Below the pieces are notes generated by a model, which was not told the DNA's origin, did not search any database, and saw nothing but the letters and a program-made list of their open reading frames with translations. From Naegleria gruberi (lineage: Eukaryota), in the NCBI GenBank assembly GCA_000004985.1, contig GG738875.1: DNA of 64,000 nucleotides, one strand, 5' to 3'. Position numbers and translations under genes: made by a program. Of the stretch, positions 8,120 through 63,982 are shown piece by piece (position 1 is the stretch's first letter; each line of letters opens with the position of its first letter).

Positions 8120-8155
8120 TGGAGTCATAGGGAATCGAACCCTAGACCTTCTGCA

Positions 8156-8186
<31 letters not shown>

Positions 8187-17080: not shown

Positions 17081-17161
17081 GTTGAGGTGGCCGAGTGGTT
17101 AAGGCGCCAGCCTGCTAAGTTGGTGGAGTAATCCGCGTGGGTTCGAATCCCATCCTCAACG
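17081..17161 (+). tRNA. tRNA-Ser (anticodon GCU)
   Basis: GTTGAGGTGGCCGAGTGGTTAAGGCGCCAGCCTGCTAAGTTGG...GGTTCGAATCCCATCCTCAACG. Anticodon loop is CTGCTAA, there is a long variable arm typical of type II tRNAs, and a GTGGNNTAAGGC D-loop. A T-rich stretch lies downstream. Confidence 0.9.
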
Positions 17162-31200: not shown

Positions 31201-34200
31201 TTACATGACAAGGCAGTTCAATAATCCTTGCCTTTGAGGTGGCTGTGGTTGCGGATTGTTTGGTTGTGGTTGCTGTAGTTGTTGTGGTTGTGGAGGAATA
31301 ATGAGAGGCCTTATTCTGGCTGGCACTGGTTGAGGGTTTGGTTGCGGAATTAATTGAAGAGGTATTTGATTATTCACAGGAGGATTTACTTGTCTTGGAC
31401 GAATAATTTCAGGAGGAACATCAAAAGTAAGGCAAGAACCAGCTCTAAAATGTGCATAAGTTGCTTGTCCTGTTGCAAATCCTTTCAAACATAACCAACA
31501 AAAATGTTGTCCGCAATAACAACAAGCTAAAATAAGTGAACAAGTGAGCTCACTAATAAATAGATTCAAAAACTTACTCATATGATTGCATCCTTCACTC
31601 TTTTCAATTCGTTGGGAACAACTTGGGCATGGCTTTGTTTTGGTATTCATCCACTCTCTTGTTTTGTCCTCGTCTCCACATTTTTGTCCCTTGTGTGATT
31701 TCTTTTCACATTCCTTACAAAAACTCAAGTTACAGGTTTGGCAAATAATGTCTGAACCATCAATTCGACAAACAGATCCACAATTTTTTGGGCAATACTT
31801 GTATGATTCTGGATTTTCTAGCAAAAAGTCCTCTAATGCTTTTGTATATGTCTTCTCTTGTTTGGTTTCGAGGTACATCAATATTTCAGAAATGGATAAA
31901 TCCATTTCACAACATGAACAAACAAAGCTATTTGGATTTTGAATTTGAAAACGAAAACAATCTTTGCAAATCTCGTGGTTACATCCTATTGTTCTGAAAG
32001 GATTTGTCATTCTCTCAAAACAAATTGGGCAATCGTCATCAGTGTGTTCAACGTTATGGTTTTGTTCATAATTTTCCATCAATTCAGTCACATATTGTTG
32101 AATAGCATGTTGGTCCTTTTCGTTACCATCCACTATTAATTCCTTGGTTTTGACATTTAAAGAAATATCACAATTAGCAAACTGTGTTTTAAGCTCTTGG
32201 AATGGTTTTCCTGCATTTCCTGTTATGGATTTTAAATATTTGAGATGAATCGTTAAAGTTTTAGAGTGACCTTCCACAAGCTGCATGATTTCCTCTTTGG
32301 CGTTGTGTTTGTCATCAATCAATCCAAAAATTTCTATTGTTCTGGTCTTGGAGTTTATAGAAATAAATACTTGATTCCTGTTTTCAATTTGGTCAAGTTG
32401 CTTTCTTTTTCTAGAAGCGTATTGGATTGTTTGATGAGTGAGGTGTAATGATAATGGCTTCACAAGGGCAACAACATTCTTTTTGGCTTCATTAAAATCT
32501 TCCAGGTTAGCAGATTGAATCGAAATTTCAGTTTTGTAATTTTCTGCATTTTTGCGCGAAGTATTATATTTGATTTTTGCCTTACAGTTATCAATCAAGC
32601 ATTGTAATTCAAATTTCAAAAGTTCAGTTACTTCTGTTGGTACTGTAACTGAATCTCTGTGAATAGAATTGGCCCATAAAATTGCTCCCATAAATTTTGT
32701 GGAATTTAGAGCTTGTGCAGCGCTTTTAGCATCTTTTTGATCAGTAAAACAAACCAAAGCTTCTCCAAATTGTTTATACGTATCTATATTCAAAATGTCC
32801 AGAAATTCAAGACTCTGGAATGATTGAACTTTAGAAAGTAATACTCCTTGGATTAAATCATTCTCTACTACAACTGGACGTCTTAGAATAGAGACGAAAT
32901 GATAATCAATATGTCTATTATCCAGTAATACTTTAACAAATTTTGCATCGATATGGTCGTAAATATTGCGTATCTCAAGAGTGTCCTTGTTCTTCGTTTT
33001 TTTAATCTGGAATCTGAGTCCAGCTGGTCCTAATTGTGATGAAAATATTCTATCATGCGTAATATTATTAATAGTGGCAGAATTATTCCCATTTTTAAAA
33101 CCAATCAAGCAATATCCGTTATTTGGGCCTATATTCCATTTTAATCGAACCAACGCAGATTCATTACTACTTTTGGTGTTAAATAGAACAGGAGTTAATT
33201 TGTAAGTTTCTTTGAATTTGTGATAAACTGTAGTTGCAACAGAAAAGTTTGTAAATACTACGTAGCCACTAGCAAATGAATCATTAGGTAAAGAGGAATA
33301 AACACGTGCATCAAGTGTATGGTATGGTAGAAACAAGTTTCTTAAAGTATCGTCATCACAACCTAATGGTAGATTATCGACCTGAAGTTTAGTAAACTCG
33401 TTTGGGAATATTAATCCTTTCACTTTACAACCACTTGATACCATGATTCGTAATCCACTCGAATCATCATCCAATCCATTTTCAATTTCCAATTCTAAAA
33501 TTTGAGATAAAGCCCTCTTTTTTGCTATTTCTATTACTTCCTTAATTTGAGAAATAATGTTAAATCTTTCGCCTTGATCACAGTAGACCTTAATTGAAGA
33601 ATCTGTTGAATCAATTTCTATTACATGCCCTAACTGTCTTTCAACTTCTTCAATGAATTCTGTGTTTCTAAATTTTAAATCTTCACTAACTATTGAAGGT
33701 AATTTCACTCTGAGTTCTTCTTTAACTTTACTGACAATCATATTGGTTTCTAGTTGTGGATAAAAATGAAGTATTTCCTTCAAATCAATTGGTGTAATAT
33801 TCCTCATATAGAGCTTGTCAGTTCTAACTAGATCTGAAAATAGTATGAAAGGTTTAGGATCTCCCAAAAATTGATGAGATGAGTTATGTATAAATGCTCG
33901 TTGCTTTAGAGAGGGAATGTAATACACTTTTGTCATATTTGGCAAATATCCGTCAAAATAGGCAAGGTTTTGATATTGGCTTTCAATTATACTTTCTTTC
34001 AAAAGTTGTTCTTTTGAAATACATTCCTTTCTAATTATTCTTTTCTTTTTAAAGAAATTGATTTTGTTCTTAAAATCCTTCAAGTTCATTTCAGCATTCT
34101 TTAGGTATTGAACATTAATATTATTTTTTAAGGACCATTCCTCTTTGTTGGACTGTTGTGAATACTCTTGAAATATTTGTAACAGAGAAAACAAATCTCC

Positions 34201-36411
34201 ACCATCATTATGAAATAAACTCTTGCTCAACAATTTTGCTTGTGATTTTTTAAACAAAATATCAGATATACTCATCATTGAAACAATAATAACCATTAAA
34301 TCAGCTACACCCTTCAAATTTGCTTGAATAATCATTCTAGACAGTGTTGGTTCTGTCTGTAACTCACAAGCCATAGTGCCAAACTCAGTGATGACACCTT
34401 CATGAACAAAGCCAAGCTTTTCCAGAGATCCAACCTCTTTAGTGATTCTTTCTATGGATGGCATTTCTAATAGTTCAAAAGCGTTTATATCGGTAACACC
34501 ACATGATAATATTTGCAAAATAGATATACCAAGATGACTTCTCATAATTTCAGCTTCTGAAGCTAATTTCATTCTCTGATATTCTACTTGTGGATATAAT
34601 CTATAACATATTCCAGAACTATTTCTTCCTACTCTTCCTTTCCTTTGCAGAGCACAGGATTGAGAGATGGAAACAGTTTTAAGTATTGACATATTCCTGT
34701 CATTATCATAGAATTTTTGTCTCATTAATCCAGAGTCTATAACTATTCTTAATGAAGGAATAGTAATGGATGTTTCTGCAACATTTGTCGAAAATATAAT
34801 CTTTCTCATAGACTTTGATTGATCGAAAATCTTTTTCAATTCAAAACTATCAATTTTTCCATGTAGAGCAATTATTTGGCAAGACGTTCCAAGGCTCTTT
34901 TTAGCCATTTTGCAACATTTGGTAACATCTTCTCTAGATGCAAGAAAAACCAGAATATCTCCTTCATGTAGATTATTCTTGACAATGTCAGTAACCTTTC
35001 TAGTTGCCTGTTCACAAGTATTTGCTTCTCTTGAATGAGAGAAATACTCCACAACAGGGTAACTTTGATGTTCTAGTTTCTTGATTGGGCAGTTATCAAA
35101 AAACATTGAAAACAAATCTTCATTGATTGTTGCAGAGGATATCAAGACTTTTAAGGGATTGTTCAAAGCTCTTCTTCTCTTTACACAATCCTTTAATAAT
35201 GAAAGTAGAATATCGGTATAAATTGATCTTTCATGCGCTTCATCAACAATAATAATAGAATAACTTAATAGGAGTTGATCATTCTGATACTCATTCAATA
35301 AACAACGATCTGTGACAAAATTAATAGATACTCTGTTGTTCCTTTTCCTTTTCTCGCCAAGCTTGCATGAAACAATAGATTTATCTCTCAATTCTTCAGA
35401 AACTCTATTAGCAAGAGTGATACAGGTCAATTTTCTGGGTTGTGTGCATGCTATTGATTTATAGCCATGTTCTAAAAGATACTGAGGAATTTGGGTACTC
35501 TTTCCAGCACCAGTAGAACAACTACAAATAACAACATCATTCTGGTCCAATAATTCCAAAATTTCGTTCCTTATCGAATAAATTGGGAGTCTGTTGGTGG
35601 TAATCCTTCCACATTCAATCTCTGTGGCCTTTAGCTTTTGCACCATACTGGTGGTTGATTGGAGAATTAGCTTCATTCTTGCGGAGAATGTTTTGCATTG
35701 ATTCTCTATCATTTTCAAATCATTAATTAATATTTGTACCTTTTCCAAGTACTTTTGATAGTCAAACGTTTTAACAAGATGATGTTTGCTTTTGTTAATT
35801 TCCTCTTCCTTTTCCTTTAGCACATTCAAAGCCTGTACTATCTTGGTATCAATCAAATTCTTTAATTTTTCATTACTATCTTGTTTGACGACACGTGTAG
35901 TTTTTTGCTGTTGTGGTTGTATAGTACTACTATTTTGTGCTGCATTTTCCTGTTGTTTTAATTTTGGTTGTTGAACAAGCTTTGCTTTCTTATTTTTCTT
36001 TTTTTTTAAATTATTTTCTAAAAGTTGTTTTGGTGGGTTTTCTTGTGAAACATATTGTTGTTTGTTTTCAACTTGGTTAATGATGGTTGGTGAAGACAAT
36101 TTGCTTGTGAATGCTCCATTTTGTTGGTGATTTGAAGTTGCAAACTTTTTTCTTCTCTCCTCCTTTTTGATTTGATTGGAAGGAACTAGAGTTGATGTGT
36201 TTTTGCTGAGTTTGCTATTATTTGGATTATTCGATGATGTTATTTTGGAGGATGATGGAGTAGTGTCCTCATTATCATTGGTACTTTGTTTGATTGGTTC
36301 TGTAACTACTTTGTCTATTACCTTGACAAACAACTTTCGTTGTTGCGGTTTCTTCTTCTTCTTGATTGCTGGATCATGCTCCACATTCACAGGGCTTGGT
36401 TTTGTATCCAT
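31201..36411 (-). CDS. DEAH-box helicase fused to a C-terminal RING-between-RING (RBR) E3 ligase module
   Basis: The 1736-aa protein has a low-complexity K/N/Q-rich N-terminus. Helicase motifs are CSCSTGAGKST (Walker A) and IIVDEAHERS (DEAH), plus the HA2/OB region. The C-terminus carries CPICFERM...CNHEICKDCF (RING1), an IBR Cys/His cluster and CPSCSQRIEKSEGCNHMSK (RING2-like). Confidence 0.8.
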   Translation of the reverse strand: MDTKPSPVNVEHDPAIKKKKKPQQRKLFVKVIDKVVTEPIKQSTNDNEDTTPSSSKITSSNNPNNSKLSKNTSTLVPSNQIKKEERRKKFATSNHQQNGAFTSKLSSPTIINQVENKQQYVSQENPPKQLLENNLKKKKNKKAKLVQQPKLKQQENAAQNSSTIQPQQQKTTRVVKQDSNEKLKNLIDTKIVQALNVLKEKEEEINKSKHHLVKTFDYQKYLEKVQILINDLKMIENQCKTFSARMKLILQSTTSMVQKLKATEIECGRITTNRLPIYSIRNEILELLDQNDVVICSCSTGAGKSTQIPQYLLEHGYKSIACTQPRKLTCITLANRVSEELRDKSIVSCKLGEKRKRNNRVSINFVTDRCLLNEYQNDQLLLSYSIIIVDEAHERSIYTDILLSLLKDCVKRRRALNNPLKVLISSATINEDLFSMFFDNCPIKKLEHQSYPVVEYFSHSREANTCEQATRKVTDIVKNNLHEGDILVFLASREDVTKCCKMAKKSLGTSCQIIALHGKIDSFELKKIFDQSKSMRKIIFSTNVAETSITIPSLRIVIDSGLMRQKFYDNDRNMSILKTVSISQSCALQRKGRVGRNSSGICYRLYPQVEYQRMKLASEAEIMRSHLGISILQILSCGVTDINAFELLEMPSIERITKEVGSLEKLGFVHEGVITEFGTMACELQTEPTLSRMIIQANLKGVADLMVIIVSMMSISDILFKKSQAKLLSKSLFHNDGGDLFSLLQIFQEYSQQSNKEEWSLKNNINVQYLKNAEMNLKDFKNKINFFKKKRIIRKECISKEQLLKESIIESQYQNLAYFDGYLPNMTKVYYIPSLKQRAFIHNSSHQFLGDPKPFILFSDLVRTDKLYMRNITPIDLKEILHFYPQLETNMIVSKVKEELRVKLPSIVSEDLKFRNTEFIEEVERQLGHVIEIDSTDSSIKVYCDQGERFNIISQIKEVIEIAKKRALSQILELEIENGLDDDSSGLRIMVSSGCKVKGLIFPNEFTKLQVDNLPLGCDDDTLRNLFLPYHTLDARVYSSLPNDSFASGYVVFTNFSVATTVYHKFKETYKLTPVLFNTKSSNESALVRLKWNIGPNNGYCLIGFKNGNNSATINNITHDRIFSSQLGPAGLRFQIKKTKNKDTLEIRNIYDHIDAKFVKVLLDNRHIDYHFVSILRRPVVVENDLIQGVLLSKVQSFQSLEFLDILNIDTYKQFGEALVCFTDQKDAKSAAQALNSTKFMGAILWANSIHRDSVTVPTEVTELLKFELQCLIDNCKAKIKYNTSRKNAENYKTEISIQSANLEDFNEAKKNVVALVKPLSLHLTHQTIQYASRKRKQLDQIENRNQVFISINSKTRTIEIFGLIDDKHNAKEEIMQLVEGHSKTLTIHLKYLKSITGNAGKPFQELKTQFANCDISLNVKTKELIVDGNEKDQHAIQQYVTELMENYEQNHNVEHTDDDCPICFERMTNPFRTIGCNHEICKDCFRFQIQNPNSFVCSCCEMDLSISEILMYLETKQEKTYTKALEDFLLENPESYKYCPKNCGSVCRIDGSDIICQTCNLSFCKECEKKSHKGQKCGDEDKTREWMNTKTKPCPSCSQRIEKSEGCNHMSKFLNLFISELTCSLILACCYCGQHFCWLCLKGFATGQATYAHFRAGSCLTFDVPPEIIRPRQVNPPVNNQIPLQLIPQPNPQPVPARIRPLIIPPQPQQLQQPQPNNPQPQPPQRQGLLNCLVM

Positions 36412-37422: not shown

Positions 37423-39129
37423 ATGATATCAACAAAAAGTGAATCATCACACTTACAAGACATAACAATTGAACAACCATTGAAAAACAAGACAAACCTT
37501 CCTTGTTACATTATCAAGAATTTTCTCACACCGAAAGAATGTTCGGAATTTATTGAAAAAGCTGTGAAAATTGGATTTGATTTGGCCTCTCATGATTACC
37601 CACCTTCCTACAGAAATAATGAGAGAATTATAATGGATGACGAAGAGTTGGCAGAGAAAATGACCAAGAAATTGAAACCAATGCTTGATAGTTTGAATTT
37701 AGTGGAATTTGAAAAGGATGGATTGGAATGTGAATTGAAAAGTGTCAATTCTAGATTTAGATTGTGTAGATATCAAGAAGGACAAGAATTTAGAATTCAT
37801 CAAGATGGTGTTCATTACAAATCAAAGTTTGTCAAGTCAATTTTGACATTTATGATTTATTTGAATGAAGAATTTGATAATGGACATACAATTTTCTTCA
37901 AGTCTGGACCTTCCTCAAACCCTCCAGAAGAAATGGGAAAATACAAACCTCAATGTGGTGATTTGATAGTATTTGATCATGAATTGTGGCATTCTGGAGA
38001 AATTGTCAATAATGGTATCAAATATGTCATGAGGAGTGATATCATTTATGATACTATCCCTATTAGTTTTGGAAATAATTCAATCGGAACAATGGAATCA
38101 TTGGAAAATTCGAACAATTGGAATAATTCTCACAATGGATATGTTTGGAAATTAATCAAGGTTGGAAAAGATGATTCCTTAATTGCTAGCGGAGGAAGAG
38201 ACACCACTATAAATATTTTCAACGAATCACTGCAAATCCAATTCAAACTTGAGGGTCACCAAAAATCAGTGCTTGGCTTATCGAAAATGGCAAATAATCA
38301 AATGGTTTCCATTTCCAGAGACCGATCAATTAAGATTTGGGACCTGGAAACGAGAGAATGTATTTTCACCAAAGAGCAAGCTCACAATCATACAGGATTA
38401 TGTGTAGAAGCGGATCCTTTTGATTCTTCAATAATTGCTTCTGGCTCTGCTGATTGTATCATCAAACTTTGGAAATTTGTTGATGGAAAATTAGAATTGT
38501 CCAAACAATTTAACGGCCACAATGGATGGATTTGGTCTTTGAAATGGATTACAATTGAAGGAGAGAGGATGCTCTTGTCTGCATCTGAGGATGGATCCAT
38601 ACGAGTCTGGAATAGTGAAACTGGCTCGTGTCACATTATTGATCAATTACAAAATCCTCTTAGGTGCCTTACTACTTTTAATTATCCAAATTCACAAATG
38701 GACACCATTATTTGTCTTGGAGACAATGAAGGCAATCTCTATCTCTATTATGTAAAAGGGGGTTTTAGTAATTTTAGTACGAAACGAACAGAATTCAAGA
38801 ACTTGCACAGGGCCTCAATAAGAACTGTTAAATTTATTAGTTCTCACATGATTGTAACAGGCTCTGAAGACTATTCTGTAATGTTATGGAAACTGAAGCA
38901 TGAGCTTTCCTCAATACCTCAACTACATCATGTCTATACCTTCAATCACAATAATTTTGTCACAGACTGTCTCTCACAATTTCACAATGAACAACAAGCA
39001 CAAGAGGAGGATAATCAATTCGCCTCCTTCTTCACTTCCTCCTATGATGGCGCCATTAAGAAACACCAAGTATCACTCTCATCGACAAGTCTTTCTTTAA
39101 CTTTGCTTGGCATGATTGGTACCAATTAA
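37423..39129 (+). CDS. 2-oxoglutarate/Fe(II) prolyl-4-hydroxylase-like domain fused to WD40 repeats
   Basis: The N-terminal domain has the P4H-type facial triad RIHQDG (HxD)...ELWHSGE (distal His)...KYVMRSDIIY (2OG-binding basic residue) and no signal peptide. The C-terminal half has six or more WD-like repeats (SGGRDTTINIF, SISRDRSIKIWDL, SGSADCIIKLW, SASEDGSIRVW, TGSEDYSVMLW). Confidence 0.7.
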   Translation: MISTKSESSHLQDITIEQPLKNKTNLPCYIIKNFLTPKECSEFIEKAVKIGFDLASHDYPPSYRNNERIIMDDEELAEKMTKKLKPMLDSLNLVEFEKDGLECELKSVNSRFRLCRYQEGQEFRIHQDGVHYKSKFVKSILTFMIYLNEEFDNGHTIFFKSGPSSNPPEEMGKYKPQCGDLIVFDHELWHSGEIVNNGIKYVMRSDIIYDTIPISFGNNSIGTMESLENSNNWNNSHNGYVWKLIKVGKDDSLIASGGRDTTINIFNESLQIQFKLEGHQKSVLGLSKMANNQMVSISRDRSIKIWDLETRECIFTKEQAHNHTGLCVEADPFDSSIIASGSADCIIKLWKFVDGKLELSKQFNGHNGWIWSLKWITIEGERMLLSASEDGSIRVWNSETGSCHIIDQLQNPLRCLTTFNYPNSQMDTIICLGDNEGNLYLYYVKGGFSNFSTKRTEFKNLHRASIRTVKFISSHMIVTGSEDYSVMLWKLKHELSSIPQLHHVYTFNHNNFVTDCLSQFHNEQQAQEEDNQFASFFTSSYDGAIKKHQVSLSSTSLSLTLLGMIGTN

Positions 39130-39292: not shown

Positions 39293-41867
39293 ATGCCTTG
39301 CGGAAAGGAAGTAAATCATGTTCGGATAGAGCCCTCTAATATTATTGTTTGTAATCATCAGATGATGAAGGAGAATGGACCATTACCATCAACATCAACA
39401 TCATCATGTAAATTAAGGCACCATAAGGATGTACTACTGCTGCATCCAAAGAGGAACAAAACAAGAAAAGTTTCCAAGTGTAAAGTAGAAACAACACGTA
39501 GTGTTGATTGTGATGATTCTTCGTCTTCAGCATCACACTCGGTACCATCAATATTAAATGTGGTACTAAGGTTCAAAAGCCTATTCTTCCTCATATGCTT
39601 CTTCTTCTTCTTCTCACATGATACATGCCTTGTTGGAAAGGTAGAGGCGATAACATGCCCAAACGGAGTGGATAATCTTCACATACAAACAAATTGGGTG
39701 ATGCAAGCACAATATGGTGCCTTTCAAGCAGCAGTGGAGATGGGATTTTATGATAATGAATGTTTGAATGTTGTTATCAAATTGGGTATGTTGTACAAGA
39801 AATGTTGAACATTGTTGACATGATCTTACATCTATAACAATGTTAAATATTTTATGATAATGTTATCATTGTATTATGTACAACGATGATGTGGATCAAC
39901 ATGCCTCAAATTATATGATAAAAAAGGTGGACCTAATGCTGATCCAATAGCAGTAATTAAAAGTGGTGAAGCTCAATTGGGAGTTTTCTTATATTCGAGA
40001 GTTTTGGTCAATAGAGAGCTTGGCTTGGACTTTGTAAATATTTTCCAACATTATTCGAGAGGTGGATTGACAATGGTTTCGAGGACAGAATCTGAGATAT
40101 CAACCTTCCCACAATTCAAAGGGAAGAATATTGGATATTGGGTTGGTAATGATTACTCCCTGCTTGCCACAATGAAGAAATATAATATAGATACCAAAAC
40201 GGAAATGAGCTTGAGATTGCAATCTTTCTCAATTTTACCATTGTTGGAACAACCTGAAAGGTAGGTTAATATTTTCTTGACTTTTTACCTTTAATTTTTT
40301 TCTAAACATTTTACTATTAAGATATGATGTTATTATGGCAATGGGATATGATCAATTGGGAAATCTTTTGATGACTGCAAAGAAAGATTCAAGTGGAAAA
40401 CCGACTGATGAATTGTATTCGATTGGAAGAGATTTAAATATCTTGGATTTCAATGCAGAACAAACTGCCATGTTGGAAGATTGTATTGTTATGAACAAGG
40501 CTTGGTATGACACCAATCCAATCAAAAATAAGGACATTCTAGTTCGTTTCTTGAAAGCAACTATTAAGGGATTGATTACCTGTAGAGATTATGAAACCAA
40601 ATGTTTCAATTTAATGCCAGATAAGAGTGCACATCAAGTTTGGTCAGTGAGAGAAGTCAACAAATTAATTTGGCCTGCTAATTTAAATGGAGTAGGATGG
40701 ATGAATACTACCTTATTGAACAGAACTATAGACGTTGCTTACAAATTTGGAGTAATTAATTCATTAGCTTCAGCTAATGGATCTTATGATTCTCAATTTG
40801 TTGAAGAAGCCATGCGACAATTTAGAAAAGGACTAGCGGATGGAAGTATTTCAGATAAGTATTCTGATTTAGTAGCACCAAACTATGGTCCAACCTCACA
40901 CGAATTCTGCTATGACGTTACAACTGATACTGTTTTCATTTGTAATGGAAAACTTGATACCCTTCGTGTAACTGTACTTGTTGTAGGAATAGTATTGGGA
41001 AGTGTGATGGTAATGTCTGCCGTTTTGGGACTGTTGGCCATTGCGTTTGGCTTTACTCTCTTGAAGAAACGAAGAGAATTGCTAATGTTTGCCCCTACAG
41101 AAAAGGATGAATCATTCCCAATTGTTTTCACTGATATTCAACAATCAACAAAATTATGGAATGCCTTCCCAGAGGAAATGAAAATTGCTCTGGAACTTCA
41201 CAATCAATTGCTGCGGAGATTATTAGATGAATATGAAGGATATGAATGTAAATCACAAGGAGATGGATTGATGGTCGCTTTCAGAGATCCAATCAATGCA
41301 TTGAAATGGATGTTGAGAAGTCAAGTGGAATTAATGAAATTGGATTGGCCAGAACATTTAATGGATCAAGAACATGCAAAATTTGAGGTTGATAATGTTG
41401 GTAAAATGATATTCAGAGGATTGAGAGTGAGAATGGGAGGTGGAATGTGTAAACCAGATGTAAAAAGGGACAAAATTGGACGGATTGATTATCTAGGTAA
41501 TGATGTGAATCAAGCTGCAAGAGTTGGAAGCATTGCAGTGGGTGGCCAAATTGTCATTCATCAAAATTTGTATGAGGAAGTTTCACACAAACTTACGGAC
41601 CTCATCATTAGAGGAGAAACAAAAGCTCCACCGTTCAATTTTCTAGGTTTCTACATGCTTAAAGGAATTGACGGAGTTCATGCTCTGTATGACATATTGC
41701 CAGCAAGTATTCACTTTAGAAAATCTCTCTTTCCACCAATTTTCGATGAAGCAAAAGGACTTCTAATTAAGGAACTTGAAGAAACAGCAATCATTGCCAC
41801 AACCACAGATATAATGGACGAACCAGAAGCTCAAGGTTCAGGAGAGAAATCTAGCAATGAAATTTAA
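39293..41867 (+). CDS. receptor-type class III nucleotidyl (adenylate-like) cyclase A: cytosolic leader, TM1, NMT1/SsuA/THI5-like solute-binding ectodomain, TM2, cyclase domain; exons approximately 39293..39785, 39927..40260, 40322..41867
   Basis: Exon 1 ends ...NECLNVVIKLG|gtatgt. Exon 2 runs GPNADPIAVIKSGEAQLGVF...LLEQPER and ends AG|gtaggt. Exon 3 begins after ttaag with YDVIMAMGYDQLGN. The ectodomain has periplasmic binding protein (PBP) type-2 NMT1-like blocks (WVMQAQYGAFQAA, FPQFKGKNIGYWVG). A hydrophobic TM follows (LRVTVLVVGIVLGSVMVMSAVLGLLAIAFGF), then the cyclase domain: FTDIQQSTKLWN...CKSQGDGLMVAFRDP...GNDVNQAARVGSIAVGGQIVI. A Lys at the base-recognition position suggests ATP. There is no in-frame ATG immediately before the first hydrophobic segment, so the start at 39293 gives a roughly 100-aa cytosolic leader. 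Confidence 0.7.
39640..40700 (+). repeat. paralogous segment shared with 42410..43400; exons near-identical, introns diverged
   Basis: The last ~150 nt of exon 1, all of exon 2 and the first ~330 nt of exon 3 are about 90% or more identical at DNA level between cyclase genes A and B, with short divergent patches. Introns 1 and 2 differ in length and sequence (141 vs 75 nt; 61 vs 52 nt). Confidence 0.7.
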
Positions 41868-42241
41868 GGAATTCAAGCCCCTCCTGTGATGGACAGTAGA
41901 CTAAACAATGAGATCCTCAATCTCCAAAATCGTTAAAGTCCAACCTTTTAAGAACCTCAACATTATTTCTTAAGGACACTTTGGCGCTTAATATTCGCAA
42001 CCCTTTATGGCAGTTTGGTCTGATGTGTACTGCAAAAACGACCAAATAAAGATCTGTAAAGCCTAATTTCGTGCCCTTAGTAATCATCCCGTTTGACCTC
42101 ACAAGAAATCATCTCTTTGCTATACTGATTCAACCCTCCTCCGCTAATTAATAACTTCTATTCAAGAAGAAAAAACCATCACATCAACAACTTTATTGTA
42201 GTTTTTAGAGAGAGATTAAGGATTGATTGGTATAGACTAAA

Positions 42242-44540
42242 ATGATGATGGCAATATTCAATTCAAAAAGAAAGAATACATATCTGCTGCATCAAATAGG
42301 GCTTGTTGATGATATAAAGAAAATGAAATTATATTCTTTTCATCAAGGAAAGACCTTATTTACAACCTTCTTATTTATTGTACTACTTTTAATTGTGATG
42401 ATGATCAATTGGGTAGAGGCCATTACTTGTCCTAATGGTGTTGATAATATAAATATACAAACAAATTGGGTGATGCAGGCACAGTATGGTGCCTTTCAAG
42501 CAGCTGTTGAGATGGGATTTTATGATAATGAATGTTTGAATGTTGTTATCAAATTGGGTATGTTGTCATGTGTATTGTACTATTAACCTTGTTGTTACTG
42601 ATCTGGTGTTGGTATCTTCTCTTATAAAATAGGTGGACCTAATGCTGATCCAATAGCAGTAATTAAAAGTGGTGAAGCTCAATTGGGAGTTTTCCTATAT
42701 TCGAGAGTTTTGGTCAATAGAGAGCTGGGCTTAGATTTTGTAAATATTTTCCAACATTATTCGAGAGGTGGATTGACAATGGTTTCGAGGACAGAATCAG
42801 GGATTTCCTCTTTTCCACAGTTTAAGGGGAAGAATATTGGTTATTGGGTTGGTAATGATTACTCCTTATTAGCAACCATTAAGAAACATGGAATGGATCC
42901 AAAAACAGAAATGAGCTTGAGATTGCAATCTTTCTCAATTTTACCATTGTTGGAACAACCTGAAAGGTAGGTGTCTTTTAACTTGGATTTGTTGTTTTAT
43001 TAATGCTAAACTATTAAGATATGATGTTATTATGGCAATGGGATATGATCAATTGGGAAATCTTTTGATGACTGCAAAGAAAGATTCAAATGGAAAATCA
43101 ACTGAAGAATTGTATTCGATTGGAAGAGATTTAAATATCTTGGATTTCAATGCAGAACAGACTGCCATGTTGGAAGATTGTATTGTGATGAACAAGGCAT
43201 GGTATGACACTAATCCAATCAAAAATAAGGACATTCTAGTTCGTTTCTTGAAAGCCACTATTAAGGGATTGATTACATGTAGAGATTATGAAACAAAATG
43301 TTTCAATTTAATGCCAGATAAGAGTGCACATCAAGTTTGGTCAGTGAGAGAAGTCAACAAATTAATTTGGCCTGCCAATTTAAATGGAATTGGTTCATTG
43401 AATGTTTCTCGTATCAATCAAACAATTGATATTGCTTACAAATTTGGAGTTATTAAATCGTTAGCTCCAGCCAATGGATCCTACGATTCTCAATTTGTGG
43501 ACGAAGCTCTTAAGCACTTCAAAACAGGACTAGCCGATGGAACAGTCTTGAATACCTATTCTGATTTAGTAGCACCAAATTATGGTCCAACCTCACACGA
43601 ATTTTGCTATGATCTAACAACTGAAACAGTTTTTATTTGTAATGGAAAAGTTAACTATTCAAATGTTATCATCGCTGTCATTGTTTCAGTTTTAGGATGT
43701 GCCCTACTGGTTGCTGCAATTATTGGTGCCTGTGCATTCATTGTTTGGAGAAGGCACGTGGCAAGAAGGAACAGAATTCTCGTCTATGCACCAACAGAAA
43801 AGGATGAATCATTCCCAATTGTTTTCACTGATATTCAACAATCAACAAAATTATGGAATGCAGCTCCTGATGATATGAAAATTGCTCTCGAGCTTCACAA
43901 TCAACTACTAAGAAAATTGCTTGCAGAGTACGAGGGATATGAATGTAAATCACAAGGAGATGGATTGATGGTCGCATTCAGAGATCCAATCAATGCTTTG
44001 AAATGGATGTTGAGAAGTCAGGTGGAATTGATGAAATTAGATTGGCCAGAACATTTAATGGATCAAGAACATGCAAAATTCGAAGTTGACAATGTTGGTA
44101 AAATGATATTCAGAGGATTGAGAGTGAGAATGGGAGGTGGAATGTGTAAACCAGATGTCAAAAAAGATTCCATGGATAAAGTTGACTATTTCGGCAATGA
44201 TGTGAATCAAGCTGCAAGAGTTGGAAGTATTGCAGTGGGTGGCCAAATTGTCATTCACGAGAATTTATATCACGAAATCATGACAAGACTTTCTGAGCTA
44301 ATATTCAGAGGTGAAACCAAGTCACCTGTCGTTAACTTCCTTGGGCCATACTGTCTTAAAGGAATTGAAGGTGTGCATGTCTTGTATGATATTCTACCAG
44401 CTAGCATTCAAAACAGAAAGACATTATTCCCAACTGAATGTGATGAAGCTAAGGGAACATTGTGGAAACCAAGTGACTCGGATGGAAATACTCCACAACA
44501 ATTAGTCGATCAATTAGAAAGCAAACGATTTGAAAAATAA
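42242..44540 (+). CDS. receptor-type class III nucleotidyl cyclase B, tandem paralog of A; exons approximately 42242..42557, 42633..42966, 43019..44540
   Basis: Same three-exon structure as A: donor gtatgt after KLG, exon 2 GPNADP...QPER, donor gtaggt, exon 3 YDVIMAMGYDQLGN.... The N-terminal signal/anchor is MKLYSFHQGKTLFTTFLFIVLLLIVMMINWVEA. The TM is IIAVIVSVLGCALLVAAIIGACAFIVW. The cyclase domain is near-identical to A, and the C-terminal tail differs. Confidence 0.7.
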
Positions 44541-60727: not shown

Positions 60728-63700
60728 TTAACACCAAATCATTTGAACGAGCAAGATGACAATGCAATAGAATGAAAGATGGGTTGCATTTGCAGATGCT
60801 AACTTGAAACTTCCCTGAGGAGTGGTAATGTTTGAATTTTGAACCTTTACAGATTGACTTGGTTTTGGGCCAGGTTTTGGAGAAGGTTTAGGAGAAGGAC
60901 TTGAAGATTGTTGAGGAATTGGAGAAGGTTTAGGGGAAGGTTGTGGAGAAGGAACAGGTACCATTGAAGAACAGTTGAGTCCTGTGAAACCTGCAAAACA
61001 AGTGCAAGTATCTGGTTTGGAACAATTTCCATGTCCAGAACAAACCAAGCTGTCACTTTCAGTCTTACCGTAACAAACAACTTGTTCACACTCTTTACCT
61101 GTATAACCAACATTACAAGTGCATTGATCATGGCCACTACAGCTTCCTCTTCCACCACATACAGAAATAGAGTTTGAGGGTATACTAAAGCAGGTAGTCA
61201 ATGAACAATCTACACCAAACCAATTTTCAGGGCAAGAAACTGATTTATGCTCACAGTTACTGCCATAATAACCATCTTTACATGTACAATTATTAAATGA
61301 AGAACAAGTTCCATTACCTGAGCATACATTTGAGTTAACTTTTGATATACCATAACAATCATACATTTCACAATTGGATCCATAATATCCAATTTCACAA
61401 GTACAATTGTTTGGAGAAGCACATTTTCCTTTTCCAGAACAAACAGTATTATTCATAAAATGTACTCCATAACAATTAAATTGATTGCAACTGCTTCCAA
61501 AATATTCATCAATGCAAGAACAGTTATTTGGAGATGGACACGATCCATGTGATGAACATACATTAGTGTCTGTTTTTGATACTCCATAACAATTGAAATT
61601 TTCACAATTATTACCAAAATAATCTTGTTGACAGGTGCAATTATTCAAAGAAGAGCAAACACCATTACCTGAACACACATTAGAGTTGGATTTTGCAAAA
61701 CCATTACAATCATACATTTCACAATTGCTGCCATAGTAACCTTGTTGACAGGTGCAGTTATTGGATGAAACACAAGTTCCATGACTTGAACAAACACTTG
61801 AATTCAATTTAGAAATATTATCACAATCATATATTTCACAATTACTGCCATAGTAACCTTGTTGGCAAGTACAATTATTGAATGAAGAACAAACTCCATG
61901 AGCTGAGCATACATTTGAGTTAACTTTTGATATACCATAACAATCATACATTTCACAATTGGATCCATAATATCCAATTTCACATGTACAATTATTTGGA
62001 GAAGCACATTTTCCTTTTCCAGAACACACAGAAGCATTACTAAACTTAACATTGAAACACTTGAAATCTTCACAATTAATTCCAAAATATTCATCAATGC
62101 AAGAACAGTTATTTGGAGATAGACATGATCCATGTGATGAACATACATTAGTGTCTGTTTTTGATACTCCATAACAATTGAAAATTTCACAATTATTACC
62201 ATAATAATCTTGTTGACAGGTGCAATTATCGAATGAAGTGCAAACACCATGACCTGAACATGTATTTGAGTTGTTTTTGGATAAGCCATAACAATTATAC
62301 ATTTCACAATTGGATCCATAATAACCAATTTCACAAGTGCAATTATTTGGAGAAGCACATTTTCCTTTTCCAGAACACACAGAAGCATTACTAAACTTAA
62401 CATTGAAACACTTGAACTCTTCACAATCATTACCAAAATAGCCTTCAAAACAAGAGCAATTATTTGGAGAGTTGCAAGTACCATGAGAAGAACACACCAT
62501 TGTGTTTTTAGAACTAATACCGTTACAGACCACGTCTTGACAATACGAACCAGAGTATCCAGCATTACAAGTGCAGTTATTCATACCAACACAAGCTCCT
62601 ACCGATGAACATACTGTGCTAGAGTTGAAAGGAATAGAGTTACAATAAAAGTATTGACAAGTTTCACCATAATAACCACTTGCACAAGAACAATTATTTG
62701 GAGATGCACAACTTCCATGGGATGAGCAAACGTTTGATTGATTATTCAATAAACCATAGCAATAAAACTCCCCACAATTTGGACCAAAGTAATTGGTAGA
62801 GCACCAAGGAGTTAGGGTTCTAATCAGATTCATATCATTAATATAAATTTCACCAGTTGAACTAATGGCAACTCCAGTAGGATTAATTAATCTAACACTT
62901 GTTGCAAAACCATCACTAATGAAATTAGTGGATCCTATAATTCCATTTCCTGCAATCGTTGAAATAATACCAGTTGTTGTTATTCTACGAATTACATAAT
63001 TGGAAGTATCAGCAATATAAACTTCTCCACTTGAACTAATGGCAATTCCATTTGGATAATTTAATTGAGCACTTGTTGCCAAACCACCATCACCACTATA
63101 TCCAGAAAGTCCAGTTCCTGCAATTGTGGTGATATTTCCATCTGTTGTGATTTTACGAATTCTATTGTTAATTCTATCAGCAATATAAACTTCTCCACTT
63201 GAACTAATGGCAATTCCAGTAGGACTATTTAAATGAGCACTTGTTGCCAAACCACCATCGCCACCATATGCTGCAAGTCCAGTTCCTGCAATTGTTGAAA
63301 TAATACCACCTGTTGAGATTTTACGAATTCTATGATTGTTGGTGTCAGCAATATAAATTTCACCATTTGCAGAAAACTCAAAAGTAGTAGCAGAAATATA
63401 AGCTGCAGTTGCAGCTATTCCGTCGCCTATACCACCAACTACAGTAAAAATGTTTCCTGATGTAATTTTACGAATTCTATGATTGTTACTATCGGCAATA
63501 TAAATATCACTAGTTGAGCTAATGGCAACTCCAGTAGGAAAATATATCTTGGCACTTGTTGCCAAACCACCATCGCCACCATATGTAACAACTCCAGTTC
63601 CTGCAACGGTTGAAATAATACCAGATGTAGTAATTTTACGAATTCTATGATTGGCTCTATCGGCAACATAAATTTCACCAGTTGAACTAATGGCAACTCC

Positions 63701-63982
63701 AGAGGGAGTGTTTAACTTGGCACTTGTTGCCAAGCCACCATCACCACTATATCCATTAGTTCCAGTTCCTGCAATTGTTGAAATAATACCAGCTGTGGAA
63801 ATTTTACGAATTCTATGATTACCATAATCAGCAATATAAATTTCGCCAGTGGAACCAATGGCAATTCCAGTAGGAACGCTTAGTTTTGCACTTGTTGCCA
63901 AGCCACCATCACCACTATATCCATAAGTTCCAGTTCCTGCAATTGTTGAAATAATACCAGATGTTGTTACTTTACGAATCAC
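60728..63982 (-). CDS. large secreted/surface protein with N-terminal NHL repeats plus about 20 tenascin-type EGF-like repeats; the 5' end runs off the window
   Basis: The N-terminal half has many NHL units (GEIYIADYGNHRIRKISTAGIISTIAGTG...). The C-terminal half has C-x-GxGxC-x-C-x-GYYGxNCE EGF repeats, a P/S-rich stalk (PVPSPQPSPKPSPIP...) and a hydrophobic C-terminus (LSFYCIVILLVQMIWC) consistent with a GPI signal or TM. The ORF reaches position 63982 still open, near the window edge, so the N-terminus is probably truncated. Confidence 0.7.
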   Translation of the reverse strand: MIRKVTTSGIISTIAGTGTYGYSGDGGLATSAKLSVPTGIAIGSTGEIYIADYGNHRIRKISTAGIISTIAGTGTNGYSGDGGLATSAKLNTPSGVAISSTGEIYVADRANHRIRKITTSGIISTVAGTGVVTYGGDGGLATSAKIYFPTGVAISSTSDIYIADSNNHRIRKITSGNIFTVVGGIGDGIAATAAYISATTFEFSANGEIYIADTNNHRIRKISTGGIISTIAGTGLAAYGGDGGLATSAHLNSPTGIAISSSGEVYIADRINNRIRKITTDGNITTIAGTGLSGYSGDGGLATSAQLNYPNGIAISSSGEVYIADTSNYVIRRITTTGIISTIAGNGIIGSTNFISDGFATSVRLINPTGVAISSTGEIYINDMNLIRTLTPWCSTNYFGPNCGEFYCYGLLNNQSNVCSSHGSCASPNNCSCASGYYGETCQYFYCNSIPFNSSTVCSSVGACVGMNNCTCNAGYSGSYCQDVVCNGISSKNTMVCSSHGTCNSPNNCSCFEGYFGNDCEEFKCFNVKFSNASVCSGKGKCASPNNCTCEIGYYGSNCEMYNCYGLSKNNSNTCSGHGVCTSFDNCTCQQDYYGNNCEIFNCYGVSKTDTNVCSSHGSCLSPNNCSCIDEYFGINCEDFKCFNVKFSNASVCSGKGKCASPNNCTCEIGYYGSNCEMYDCYGISKVNSNVCSAHGVCSSFNNCTCQQGYYGSNCEIYDCDNISKLNSSVCSSHGTCVSSNNCTCQQGYYGSNCEMYDCNGFAKSNSNVCSGNGVCSSLNNCTCQQDYFGNNCENFNCYGVSKTDTNVCSSHGSCPSPNNCSCIDEYFGSSCNQFNCYGVHFMNNTVCSGKGKCASPNNCTCEIGYYGSNCEMYDCYGISKVNSNVCSGNGTCSSFNNCTCKDGYYGSNCEHKSVSCPENWFGVDCSLTTCFSIPSNSISVCGGRGSCSGHDQCTCNVGYTGKECEQVVCYGKTESDSLVCSGHGNCSKPDTCTCFAGFTGLNCSSMVPVPSPQPSPKPSPIPQQSSSPSPKPSPKPGPKPSQSVKVQNSNITTPQGSFKLASANATHLSFYCIVILLVQMIWC
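61200..62600. repeat. near-identical tandem duplication of EGF-repeat coding units inside the NHL/EGF gene
   Basis: DNA blocks such as 61321-61450 and 61921-62050 are almost identical; gcacattttccttttccagaaca recurs at about 61421, 62021 and 62351. The minus-strand antisense ORFs repeat the same peptide (…LSLVMLLCVLEKENVLLQII.HVKLDIMDPIVKCMIVMVYQKLTQMYAQ) three times. Confidence 0.7.

What the first reader, a model, noticed from the sequence alone, without database searches (positions are those of the whole stretch)
39293..44540. Tandem pair of receptor-type nucleotidyl cyclases with an NMT1/SsuA/THI5-like solute-binding ectodomain
Two adjacent same-strand three-exon genes encode a class III cyclase catalytic domain. 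It sits behind a single TM helix that follows an extracellular periplasmic binding protein (PBP) type-2 domain of the NMT1/THI5/SsuA kind (blocks WVMQAQYGAFQAA and FPQFKGKNIGYWVG). The ectodomain begins after a first hydrophobic segment, giving a predicted topology of cytosolic leader, TM1, PBP ectodomain, TM2, cyclase. The catalytic domain is of the trypanosomatid/fungal flavour (FTDIxxST.LW, K.QGDG.MVAF, GNDVNQAARVGS, GGQIV) with Lys at the purine-specifying position, so adenylate cyclase is likely. Trypanosomatid receptor ACs use a different, type-1 PBP ectodomain. A sulfonate/thiamine-precursor/nitrate-type binding fold gating a eukaryotic cyclase is not an architecture I recognise as described. 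This is the strongest candidate for a new ligand-gated cAMP signalling module in the window.
Basis: partly seen in the sequence, partly recalled or inferred. Interest (0 to 1): 0.85.

Follow-up and report, generated by a model that had tools for sequence, protein, structure and literature searches.

The report
Amoeba receptor cyclases with bacterial-type sensor
Two neighbouring genes of the amoeba Naegleria gruberi encode membrane receptors in which a bacterial-style nutrient-binding domain on the outside of the cell is wired to a cAMP-making enzyme on the inside; the design is real and undescribed in the papers searched, but it is a variant of the receptor cyclases known from trypanosomes and also occurs in a few other protists.

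Summary
Window 39293-44540 holds two tandem, same-strand, three-exon paralogues. They are Naegleria gruberi NAEGRDRAFT_68963 and NAEGRDRAFT_68964, both annotated only as 'predicted protein'. Each encodes an N-terminal hydrophobic signal segment, a ~367-aa NMT1/THI5-type (PF09084) type-II binding-protein ectodomain, one TM helix, a ~20-aa linker and a class III cyclase domain (PF00211). All six catalytic residues are present, with a Lys/Asp pair that indicates adenylate cyclase. Structure prediction confirms both folds. The ectodomain is nearest to the thiamin- and FAMP-binding proteins 4NMY and ThiY. The cyclase is nearest to Trypanosoma brucei GRESAG4.

- The first hydrophobic segment is most likely a cleaved signal peptide.
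- The architecture is not unique. It also occurs in the diplonemid Lacrimia and in at least two unidentified eukaryotes. The same ectodomain is fused to a class-C 7TM receptor in another unidentified eukaryote.
- The ligand is more likely a pyrimidine/hydantoin-like heterocycle than a sulfonate or nitrate. The 31-40% identical bacterial binding proteins sit beside dihydropyrimidinase/carbamoylase genes.

No paper describing this design was found. Verdict: a new variant of a known kind (Venus-flytrap receptor cyclase), of moderate interest. Function and ligand are untested.

The parts
39293..41867 (+). Gene 1 (NAEGRDRAFT_68963, XP_002675902.1), CDS including the stop codon. Exons 39293-39785, 39927-40260 and 40322-41867. 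Introns 39786-39926 and 40261-40321. The start codon is not verified.
   Evidence: The deposited model starts at an internal Met (MQAQYGA...) and lacks the signal segment.
39551..39649 (+). Gene 1 N-terminal hydrophobic segment (aa 87-119, ...FKSLFFLICFFFFF...KVEA). It is either a signal peptide or a signal anchor, and it is preceded by a leader of about 85 aa with no nearby in-frame ATG.
   Evidence: Hydropathy and coordinates.
39650..40952 (+). Gene 1 ectodomain (aa 120-486). NMT1/THI5-type type-II PBP with a juxtamembrane Cys loop. It spans both introns.
   Evidence: Pfam. Full-length alignment to bacterial SBPs. AF2 model with pLDDT >90. Foldseek top hits 4NMY, 3IX1 and THI5.
40965..41063 (+). 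Gene 1 transmembrane helix (aa 491-523).
   Evidence: Hydropathy maximum 2.54. Modelled as a long helix.
41115..41711 (+). Gene 1 class III cyclase domain (aa 541-739). Catalytic residues D547, D590, K586, D665, N672 and R676.
42242..44540 (+). Gene 2 (NAEGRDRAFT_68964, XP_002675903.1), CDS including the stop codon. Exons 42242-42557, 42633-42966 and 43019-44540. Introns 42558-42632 and 42967-43018. An alternative start lies at 42323 (MKLYSF...).
   Evidence: The deposited model starts at an internal Met (MGFYDNE...).
42323..42421 (+). Gene 2 probable cleaved signal peptide (MKLYSFHQGKTLFTTFLFIVLLLIVMMINWVEA | ITCPNG).
   Evidence: Homologues P0077, P0090, P0106 and P0121 have equivalent short N-terminal signal peptides.
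42422..43649 (+). Gene 2 ectodomain (aa 61-427). NMT1/THI5-type type-II PBP with 7 Cys and 3 N-glycosylation sequons. It spans both introns.
43662..43748 (+). Gene 2 transmembrane helix (aa 432-460).
   Evidence: Hydropathy maximum 3.12.
43812..44408 (+). Gene 2 class III cyclase domain (aa 482-680). Catalytic residues D488, D531, K527, D606, N613 and R617.
   Evidence: Pfam. PDB sequence match to GRESAG4.3/4.1 at E 6e-26 and 3e-24. AF2 model with pLDDT >90. Foldseek top hits 1FX4 and 1FX2 with TM 0.77-0.79.

Best explanation
The two genes are tandem paralogues encoding single-pass, type I receptor-type adenylate cyclases.

Domain order:
- An N-terminal signal sequence directs a ~367-aa Venus-flytrap domain to the cell surface. 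It is a type-II periplasmic-binding-protein fold of the NMT1/ThiY/SsuA family, ultimately of bacterial ABC-transporter origin.
- A disulfide-type Cys loop, one TM helix and a ~20-residue linker connect it to the cytosolic domain.
- The cytosolic part is a class III cyclase homology domain of the same lineage as the trypanosome receptor cyclases.

Each chain carries all six catalytic residues: two metal Asp, the Lys/Asp adenine pair and the Asn/Arg transition-state pair. The active enzyme should therefore be a head-to-tail homodimer with two ATP sites.

Inferred mechanism: a small extracellular solute closes the flytrap. This changes the geometry of the ectodomain dimer and, through the short TM-linker, brings the catalytic domains into a productive dimer, so cAMP rises.

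Inferred ligand class (weakest step): a pyrimidine-, dihydropyrimidine- or hydantoin-like heterocycle, plausibly a cue from bacterial prey or decaying matter.

Shown here: gene structure, domain identity, folds, catalytic residues, purifying selection and occurrence in other eukaryotes. Inferred: topology, dimeric activation, ligand gating and ligand class.
For: Architecture:
- Spliced ORFs; Pfam NMT1 plus Guanylate_cyc above cut-offs.
- Ectodomain model with pLDDT >90, whose best PDB folds are the thiamin-bound SBP 4NMY and ThiY 3IX1 (E 1e-15 and 5e-14, TM 0.74).
- Cyclase model with pLDDT >90, whose best folds are T. brucei GRESAG4.3 and 4.1; the sequence match is E 6e-26.
- The catalytic hexad has the K(+4)D and D(+7)N(+4)R spacing.

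Extracellular location: N-terminal signal segment, 7 Cys, 3 NxS/T sequons and a single downstream TM.

Both copies are under purifying selection: dN/dS is 0.13 for the ectodomain and 0.10 for the cyclase.

Bacterial origin and retained pocket:
- The ectodomain is 31-40% identical over its full length to stand-alone bacterial SBPs.
- Most bacterial near-invariant polar and aromatic residues are kept: W16, Q19, Q21, Q86, W117, Y166, E209, D210, R245, Q262.

Ligand clue:
- The SBP homologues lie in permease-ATPase-permease-SBP operons next to dihydropyrimidinase (TIGR02033, above cut-off), carbamoylase (TIGR01879) and an LLM oxidoreductase (TIGR03842).
- 34 of 42 metagenomic SBP loci of at least 5 kb carry such a gene.

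Same design elsewhere:
- P0077 (43% identical over the full length), Lacrimia lanifica P0090 and the intron-split locus L086.
- The eukaryotic ectodomains cluster together (NJ bootstrap 72/100) and share a juxtamembrane FC..C motif absent from the bacterial proteins.
Against: - No expression, activity or binding data exist. The start codons and signal-peptide cleavage are not verified.
- Gene 1 has a long leader with no Met near the hydrophobic segment.
- The ligand inference rests on homologues that are only 31-40% identical. The Naegleria pair has changed some otherwise near-invariant positions (N167D, E168Q, M148I, W241L, G204Q).
- Trypanosome receptor cyclases of the same catalytic lineage are activated by acid, osmotic or membrane stress, and no ligand has ever been found for them (PMC6027212, PMC10470820). 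Ligand gating is therefore not guaranteed.
- The NJ support for a single eukaryotic clade is moderate.
Confidence: 0.7

Rival explanations
1. The proteins are stress-regulated rather than ligand-gated. On this view the ectodomain is mainly a dimerisation or scaffold module, and the cyclase responds to pH, osmolarity or membrane perturbation. This is what is proposed for trypanosome receptor cyclases and for Dictyostelium ACG.
For: - The catalytic domain is closest to GRESAG4.
- Reviews report activation of those enzymes by acidic, hypotonic or proteolytic stress and no known ligand (PMC6027212; PMC10470820).
- The TM-to-cyclase linker is very short.
Against: - The N-terminal 280 residues of the ectodomain are under strong purifying selection, with dN/dS about 0.07.
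- The residues that are near-invariant in ligand-binding bacterial SBPs are retained.
- The same ectodomain is reused on a class-C 7TM receptor, a family that works by ligand-induced flytrap closure.
Confidence: 0.2
2. The proteins are ligand-gated adenylate cyclases, but the ligand is an anion of the SsuA/TauA/NrtA/CmpA type (sulfonate, taurine, nitrate or bicarbonate).
For: - These proteins share the fold and appear lower in the Foldseek list, at E 4e-9 to 1e-6.
- There are weak NCBIfam matches to the taurine and SsuA families.
Against: - The NCBIfam scores are 19.6 and 13.8 bits against cut-offs of 304 and 163.
- The best structural neighbours bind thiamin or FAMP.
- The much closer sequence relatives (31-40% identical) sit in dihydropyrimidinase/carbamoylase operons, not in sulfur or nitrate clusters.
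Confidence: 0.07
3. The genes are not functional receptors. They could be guanylate cyclases, catalytically dead pseudo-enzymes, THI5-like biosynthetic enzymes, a mis-assembly or bacterial contamination.
For: - A homologue with a degenerate cyclase domain exists (P0121).
- The deposited gene models are N-terminally truncated.
Against: - All six catalytic residues are intact in both copies, with Lys/Asp rather than the Glu/Cys of guanylate cyclases.
- dN/dS is about 0.1.
- The THI5 catalytic positions K62 and H66 align with F and R.
- The genes have spliceosomal introns and eukaryotic neighbours.
Confidence: 0.03

Closest known systems
Trypanosomatid receptor-type adenylate cyclases (ESAG4/GRESAG4; catalytic domains 1FX2 and 1FX4)
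   Same: - Single-pass topology: a large extracellular binding-protein-like domain, one TM and a cytosolic class III catalytic domain that must homodimerise.
- The catalytic domain is the best solved match by sequence (E 6e-26) and by fold (TM 0.77-0.79).
- It has an insertion at the same place relative to the bacterial cyclase Ma1120.
- Both organisms are Discoba.
   Different: - Trypanosome enzymes carry one or two PBP/VFT domains (PMC6027212, PMC10470820). From my own knowledge these are of the type-I, LivK-like class; I did not test this here.
- The Naegleria proteins carry a single type-II NMT1/ThiY-class domain that is 31-40% identical to present-day bacterial transporter SBPs.
- They also have a shorter C-terminal tail.
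Animal receptor guanylate cyclases (NPR-A and relatives)
   Same: A Venus-flytrap ectodomain, a single TM and a class III cyclase, activated as a dimer by ligand binding (as summarised in PMC6027212).
   Different: The animal enzymes have a type-I ANF_receptor ectodomain, a kinase-homology domain and a coiled-coil linker, and they are specific for GTP. None of these features is present here.
Bacterial NitT/TauT-family substrate-binding proteins of pyrimidine/hydantoin-catabolic operons; ThiY (3IX1) and the thiamin-binding SBP 4NMY
   Same: - Full-length homology to the ectodomain (31-40% identity, 85-92% coverage).
- The same fold.
- Most pocket-type conserved residues are shared.
   Different: - The bacterial proteins are soluble or lipid-anchored partners of ABC importers.
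- Here the domain is covalently fused, through a eukaryote-specific Cys loop and TM, to a signalling enzyme.
Bacterial sensors with fused binding-protein domains (for example BvgS; the Polaromonas NMT1-PAS-histidine kinase P0007)
   Same: A type-II PBP/NMT1 domain is used as the extracytoplasmic input of a transmembrane signalling protein.
   Different: The output is a histidine kinase, not a cyclase. No bacterial NMT1+cyclase protein appeared among the best 150 of 9145 hits.
Other protist proteins found here: Lacrimia lanifica P0090, environmental P0077 and L086 (NMT1+TM+cyclase), P0124 (NMT1+7tm_3) and Willaertia magna KAL9656567.1 (PBP_like_2+TM+cyclase)
   Same: They have the same ectodomain clade and juxtamembrane Cys loop, or the same cyclase lineage joined to another type-II PBP.
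   Different: All are uncharacterised. Identity to the Naegleria pair is 27-43%. The outputs differ: active cyclase, degenerate cyclase, class-C 7TM, or none.

Membership tests
Class III nucleotidyl cyclase (PF00211) | Profile match above the curated threshold, and the cyclase homology fold | tested here: met
   66.0 and 61.2 bits against a cut-off of 21.9. AF2 model with pLDDT >90, with Foldseek top hits 1FX4 and 1FX2 at TM 0.77-0.79.
Class III nucleotidyl cyclase (PF00211) | Two metal-binding Asp, plus the transition-state Asn and Arg | tested here: met
   Gene 2 has D488, D531, N613 and R617. Gene 1 has D547, D590, N672 and R676. They align with FTDIESST, GDSFM and N..AAR of GRESAG4.
Class III nucleotidyl cyclase (PF00211) | Adenylate specificity: a Lys/Asp substrate pair | tested here: met
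   K527/D606 in gene 2 and K586/D665 in gene 1. The roles of these positions come from established knowledge of class III cyclases. The PDB Ma1120 'KDA to EGY' entries reflect the same rule.
Class III nucleotidyl cyclase (PF00211) | Measured cAMP synthesis | not testable with these tools
   This needs an enzyme assay.
NMT1/THI5-like type-II periplasmic binding protein (PF09084) | Profile match above the curated threshold | tested here: met
   72.9 and 65.2 bits against a cut-off of 20.5.
NMT1/THI5-like type-II periplasmic binding protein (PF09084) | Two-lobed type-II PBP fold | tested here: met
   AF2 pLDDT >90 over residues 1-330 of P0002. Foldseek hits 4NMY, 3IX1, THI5, TauA, SsuA and NrtA, with TM up to 0.74.
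NMT1/THI5-like type-II periplasmic binding protein (PF09084) | Binds a small solute in the inter-lobe cleft | not testable with these tools
   The only evidence is indirect: retention of residues that are near-invariant in bacterial SBPs.
Trypanosomatid receptor-type adenylate cyclase (ESAG4/GRESAG4) | Topology of signal sequence, ectodomain, one TM and cytosolic cyclase | tested here: met
   Hydropathy, Cys and sequon content, and domain order. The topology is inferred, not measured.
Trypanosomatid receptor-type adenylate cyclase (ESAG4/GRESAG4) | Catalytic domain of the GRESAG4 type | tested here: met
   GRESAG4 is the best PDB match by sequence (E 6e-26 and 3e-24) and by fold. Still closer unsolved relatives exist in diplonemids and other protists.
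Trypanosomatid receptor-type adenylate cyclase (ESAG4/GRESAG4) | Ectodomain built from one or two PBP/VFT domains of the trypanosomatid (type-I) kind | tested here: not met
   The ectodomain is a single NMT1-type (type-II) domain. That trypanosome ectodomains have 1-2 PBP/VFT domains comes from PMC6027212 and PMC10470820. Their type-I class is from my own knowledge. The Naegleria proteins therefore work like this family but are not members in the strict sense.
THI5/NMT1 HMP-P synthase (enzyme) | Catalytic Lys62 and His66, and a cytosolic location | tested here: not met
   In the alignment to C. albicans THI13, these positions align with F and R. Identity is about 13%. The domain follows a signal segment and lies outside the membrane. 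The identity of K62 is from my own knowledge. H66 is named in the title of entry 4ESW.
SsuA/TauA sulfonate-binding proteins (TIGR01728/TIGR01729) | Score at or above the NCBIfam cut-off | tested here: not met
   13.8 bits against 163.5 and 19.6 bits against 304.25.

The most novel reading that the evidence does not exclude
One bacterial transporter binding protein was captured by an early discoban (or spread between protists). It became a portable eukaryotic sensor cassette (flytrap, Cys loop and TM) that is plugged into at least three outputs: an adenylate cyclase, a pseudo-cyclase and a class-C-type 7TM receptor. In Naegleria it would let the amoeba read a pyrimidine/hydantoin-type metabolite from bacterial prey directly as cAMP. 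That would make these the first protist receptor cyclases with a predictable, testable ligand.
Probability: 0.2. Interest if true: 0.8.

Novelty: new variant of a known kind. Interest (0 to 1): 0.55.

Why it matters
Receptor-type adenylate cyclases are treated as a hallmark of trypanosomatids, and no ligand has been identified for them (PMC6027212, PMC10470820). The Naegleria pair has a catalytic domain of the same lineage. Its ectodomain, however, still closely resembles bacterial transporter binding proteins whose operon context suggests a ligand class. That gives a concrete, small panel of compounds to test and a soluble domain that should be easy to express. A positive result would establish direct ligand gating in this enzyme class. 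It would also show how free-living protists build new chemosensors from bacterial parts. The link to a class-C-type 7TM receptor carrying the same ectodomain suggests modular reuse across eukaryotic signalling families.

Tried and rejected
Attempts that failed or returned nothing:
I used the deposited N-truncated models instead, so the first beta-strand is missing from the model.
- A combined SBP plus cyclase alignment (A2) aligned poorly and was not used.
- The AFDB fold library was unavailable.
- Look-ups of the genomic places of P0001 and of the third N. gruberi cyclase fragment P0110 found nothing on record. I therefore could not test whether P0110 is a third family member.
- A metagenome scan with P0001 found no close relatives.
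- A metagenome scan with the eukaryote alignment returned only bacterial SBPs. I reused those loci for operon statistics.
- My first tree script timed out.
- Seven literature searches and five papers read turned up no description of an NMT1+cyclase protein or of these gene ids. One further search was rejected for a malformed term. The N. gruberi genome paper is not held, so a mention in it or its supplement cannot be excluded.

Readings rejected:
- THI5-like enzyme: the catalytic residues are absent.
- Guanylate cyclase: the substrate pair is Lys/Asp.
- Contamination or pseudogene: the genes have introns, eukaryotic neighbours and dN/dS of about 0.1.
- Sulfonate or nitrate specificity: the scores are far below the family cut-offs.

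Full report
**What is there.** The window is Naegleria gruberi nuclear DNA of about 34% GC. The two deposited proteins XP_002675902.1 and XP_002675903.1 (NAEGRDRAFT_68963 and NAEGRDRAFT_68964; UniProt D2VJA0 and D2VJA1) match the region, the second at 100% identity. Both are named only 'predicted protein'.

Reading the DNA gives two same-strand genes of three exons each:
- Gene 1: exons 39293-39785, 39927-40260 and 40322-41867.
- Gene 2: exons 42242-42557, 42633-42966 and 43019-44540.

The four introns are GT..AG and measure 141, 61, 75 and 52 nt. The spliced frames are open, giving 790 and 723 codons.

Three things support the splice sites:
- Both paralogues have introns at identical positions, while the intron sequences and lengths have diverged.
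- The protein aligns without gaps across both junctions to bacterial homologues.
- The deposited models use the same junctions.

The deposited models begin at internal methionines (MQAQYGA... and MGFYDNE...). They therefore lack the N-terminal hydrophobic segment and the first beta-strand. The models given here are more complete at the 5' end, but their start codons are unverified.

The neighbours are ordinary eukaryotic genes:
- a 2OG-oxygenase/WD40 protein
- a GNAT acetyltransferase
- a RasGEF
- a UCH protease
- an alanyl-tRNA synthetase

The pair is therefore not contamination.

**Domain identity.** Pfam finds NMT1 (PF09084; E 4.6e-20 and 1.1e-17) and Guanylate_cyc (PF00211; E 4.2e-18 and 1.3e-16) in both proteins, and nothing else. 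Hydropathy shows exactly two hydrophobic segments in each. One precedes the mature ectodomain and ends in VEA|ITCPNG. The other lies between the ectodomain and the cyclase. The region between them has 7 Cys and 3 N-glycosylation sequons.

An AlphaFold2 model built with 41 bacterial homologues gives pLDDT >90 for the ectodomain. Its best matches among solved structures are:
- the thiamin-bound binding protein 4NMY (E 1.3e-15, TM 0.74)
- the formylaminopyrimidine-binding protein ThiY, 3IX1
- THI5
- then TauA, SsuA, NrtA and CmpA

A second model built with cyclase homologues gives pLDDT >90 for the catalytic domain. Its best matches are Trypanosoma brucei GRESAG4.3 and 4.1 (E 7e-16 and 9e-16, TM 0.77-0.79), followed by the mycobacterial cyclases. 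By sequence alone, GRESAG4.3 and 4.1 are also the best solved relatives (E 5.7e-26 and 2.9e-24). Relative to the bacterial Ma1120, the Naegleria domain has an insertion at the same place as the trypanosome enzymes, though a shorter one.

**Catalytic competence.** The alignment to GRESAG4 and the motif spacing identify the following residues:
- Gene 2: D488 and D531 (metal), K527 and D606 (adenine-specifying pair), N613 and R617 (transition state).
- Gene 1: D547, D590, K586, D665, N672 and R676.

The assignment of roles rests on established knowledge of class III cyclases. All six residues lie in one chain, which implies a homodimer with two active sites and ATP as the substrate.

Between the paralogues, dN/dS is 0.13 for the ectodomain, 0.10 for the cyclase and 0.40 for the TM plus linker. 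Both copies are therefore maintained by selection. dS varies from 0.13 to 0.9 along the gene, which points to gene conversion in the middle of the ectodomain.

**Topology.** In gene 2 an ATG at 42323 gives a textbook signal peptide (MKLYSFHQGK, a hydrophobic core, then VEA|I). All homologues with complete N-termini (P0077, P0090, P0106 and P0121) start directly with a short signal peptide. A cleaved signal peptide and type I topology is therefore the better reading.

Gene 1 differs. No in-frame ATG lies between 39365 and the hydrophobic segment, so the protein carries a leader of roughly 65-85 residues before it, rich in Ser and Lys. Three readings remain open:
- a long signal-peptide n-region
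- a mis-set start

I cannot decide between these without transcript data.

**Origin of the ectodomain.** A word-indexed search of 5.8 billion proteins with the ectodomain returned 40 stand-alone bacterial binding proteins of about 340-430 aa. They are 30-38% identical over 84-92% of the query, including the C-terminal tail.

Most residues that are near-invariant in the bacterial proteins are kept in the eukaryotic receptors: W16, Q19, Q21, Q86, W117, Y166, E209, D210, R245, Q262, W264, E268, N270 and W274. The Naegleria pair has changed a few of them: N167D, E168Q, M148I, W241L and G204Q.

The THI5 enzyme residues are not conserved. Scores for the SsuA and TauA families are far below their cut-offs.

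**Clue to the ligand.** In three unrelated bacterial genomes or MAGs the homologous binding-protein gene lies in a permease-ATPase-permease-SBP cassette. Directly beside the cassette are:
- a dihydropyrimidinase (TIGR02033, 584 and 555 bits against a cut-off of 393)
- a hydantoinase/carbamoylase-family amidase (TIGR01879) or a CN-hydrolase
- a class-III aminotransferase
- a TIGR03842 LLM oxidoreductase

Among 80 further metagenomic loci encoding such binding proteins, 34 of the 42 that are at least 5 kb long carry one or more of these enzymes, and 24 carry a dihydropyrimidinase-like gene.

The nearest solved folds bind thiamin and a pyrimidine precursor. Together these points make a pyrimidine/dihydropyrimidine/hydantoin-like heterocycle the best guess for the subfamily's ligand. 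It is only a guess for the Naegleria proteins, which are 31-40% identical to the bacterial ones.

**Distribution.** An exhaustive HMMER search of 1.84 billion cluster representatives with P0001 gave 9145 hits. Among the best 150 hits and the loci fetched from them, several have this ectodomain followed by a TM:

| Protein or locus | Source | Architecture |
|---|---|---|
| P0077 (692 aa) | Intronless gene on a 36% GC JGI metagenome contig; 43% identical over the full length | NMT1+TM+cyclase, catalytic residues intact |
| P0090 (871 aa) | The diplonemid Lacrimia lanifica | NMT1+TM+cyclase, catalytic residues intact |
| P0119 / locus L086 | Unidentified eukaryote of 44-52% GC; intron-split | NMT1+TM+cyclase |
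| P0121 | Unidentified (Logan assembly) | NMT1+TM+degenerate cyclase |
| P0124 | Unidentified (Logan assembly) | NMT1 fused to a class-C 7tm_3 domain |
| P0106 | Unidentified (Logan assembly) | NMT1+TM only |

These eukaryotic ectodomains group together in a neighbour-joining tree (bootstrap 72/100). They share two juxtamembrane cysteines (FC-x9-11-C) that the bacterial proteins lack. This suggests one capture followed by shuffling of outputs.

The cyclase domain of P0077 is also the best non-Naegleria match to the Naegleria cyclase, so the two domains appear to have travelled together. Other close cyclase relatives are attached to quite different modules, in a range of protists:
- CHASE2
- CH
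- PH
- a protein kinase
- four cyclase domains in tandem, in diplonemids
- a PstS-type PBP_like_2 ectodomain, in the heterolobosean Willaertia magna (KAL9656567.1)

No bacterial NMT1+cyclase protein was seen. A bacterial NMT1-PAS-histidine kinase was found (P0007). No orthologue from another named Naegleria species appeared. An environmental fragment that is 75% identical (P0050) shows that close relatives exist.

**Comparison with what is known.** Functionally the closest system is the trypanosomatid receptor-type adenylate cyclase. It has a PBP/VFT ectodomain, one TM and a dimerising class III domain. It is described as a hallmark of trypanosomatids, and its ligand is unknown (PMC6027212; PMC10470820; PMC7719234).

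The Naegleria proteins share the topology and the catalytic lineage. They fail the ectodomain criterion, because they have a single type-II NMT1-class domain rather than one or two trypanosomatid-type domains. They work like that family without being members of it.

Animal receptor guanylate cyclases are a more distant analogue, and BvgS-like bacterial kinases are a prokaryotic one.

Seven full-text searches, including searches for the gene and protein ids, found no paper describing an NMT1-cyclase fusion.

This is a new variant of a known kind. It is a Venus-flytrap receptor adenylate cyclase that uses a different, recently bacterial-like class of binding domain. It is already in the sequence databases but uncharacterised, and it is found sporadically in Discoba and in unidentified protists.

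Its main value is practical. It offers a tractable route to the first ligand for a protist receptor cyclase. Enzyme activity, ligand gating and ligand identity all remain inferences.

Noticed in passing
P0124 / locus L002:115-2139 (Logan SRR22100204): An unidentified eukaryote encodes the same NMT1-type ectodomain and juxtamembrane Cys loop fused to a class-C GPCR 7tm_3 domain (Pfam E 1e-34). This would be a class-C-type receptor with a type-II instead of a type-I flytrap.
   Followed up: partly
P0160 = Willaertia magna KAL9656567.1: A heterolobosean relative of Naegleria has a receptor cyclase of the same catalytic lineage, but with a PstS-like PBP_like_2 ectodomain. Heteroloboseans may therefore carry a set of cyclases with interchangeable bacterial-type binding domains.
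   Followed up: partly
P0121 (Logan, 632 aa): This homologue has an intact NMT1 ectodomain and TM, but its cyclase domain has lost both metal Asp, the Lys and the Asn/Arg. It is a likely pseudo-cyclase receptor.
   Followed up: partly
window 40378-40678 versus 43075-43375, and the flanking parts of the two genes: Synonymous divergence between the paralogues is patchy: dS is 0.13 in the middle of the ectodomain and 0.5-0.9 elsewhere. The TM and linker are highly diverged. This suggests gene conversion over part of the ectodomain.
   Followed up: partly
window 39293-39550: Gene 1 has a leader rich in Ser, Thr and Lys before its hydrophobic segment (86 aa from the ATG at 39293, about 63 aa from 39362). 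Gene 2 and all homologues lack it, and there is no in-frame ATG closer to the signal segment. The true start or an extra 5' exon is unresolved.
   Followed up: partly
P0076 (Hemistasia), P0078 (Namystynia), P0079, P0080: These proteins of 1400-2000 aa each contain four class III cyclase domains in tandem (P0076 and P0078 are from diplonemids; the sources of P0079 and P0080 were not looked up). They are among the closest relatives of the Naegleria catalytic domain.
   Followed up: no
L003:2360-9125, L004:4321-14023, L005:4093-13758 (bacterial loci): A conserved bacterial cluster joins a NitT/TauT-type ABC importer to dihydropyrimidinase, a carbamoylase or CN-hydrolase, an aminotransferase and a TIGR03842 LLM oxidoreductase. 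The LLM enzyme might replace dihydropyrimidine dehydrogenase in a reductive pyrimidine pathway.
   Followed up: partly
window 37423-39129 (+): The gene immediately upstream encodes a 2OG-Fe(II) oxygenase domain fused to a WD40 beta-propeller, which is an uncommon combination.
   Followed up: no
window 31201-36411 (-): A 1736-aa ORF combines a DEAD/DEAH-type helicase (with HA2 and OB domains), an RRM and a RING-IBR (RBR-type E3 ligase) module.
   Followed up: no
window 60728-63982 (-): A large ORF encodes NHL repeats followed by many teneurin-type EGF repeats. It is probably a surface or adhesion protein.
   Followed up: no
window 8120-8192 (-) and 17081-17161 (+): tRNA-Ala(UGC) and tRNA-Ser(GCU) genes.
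   Followed up: no
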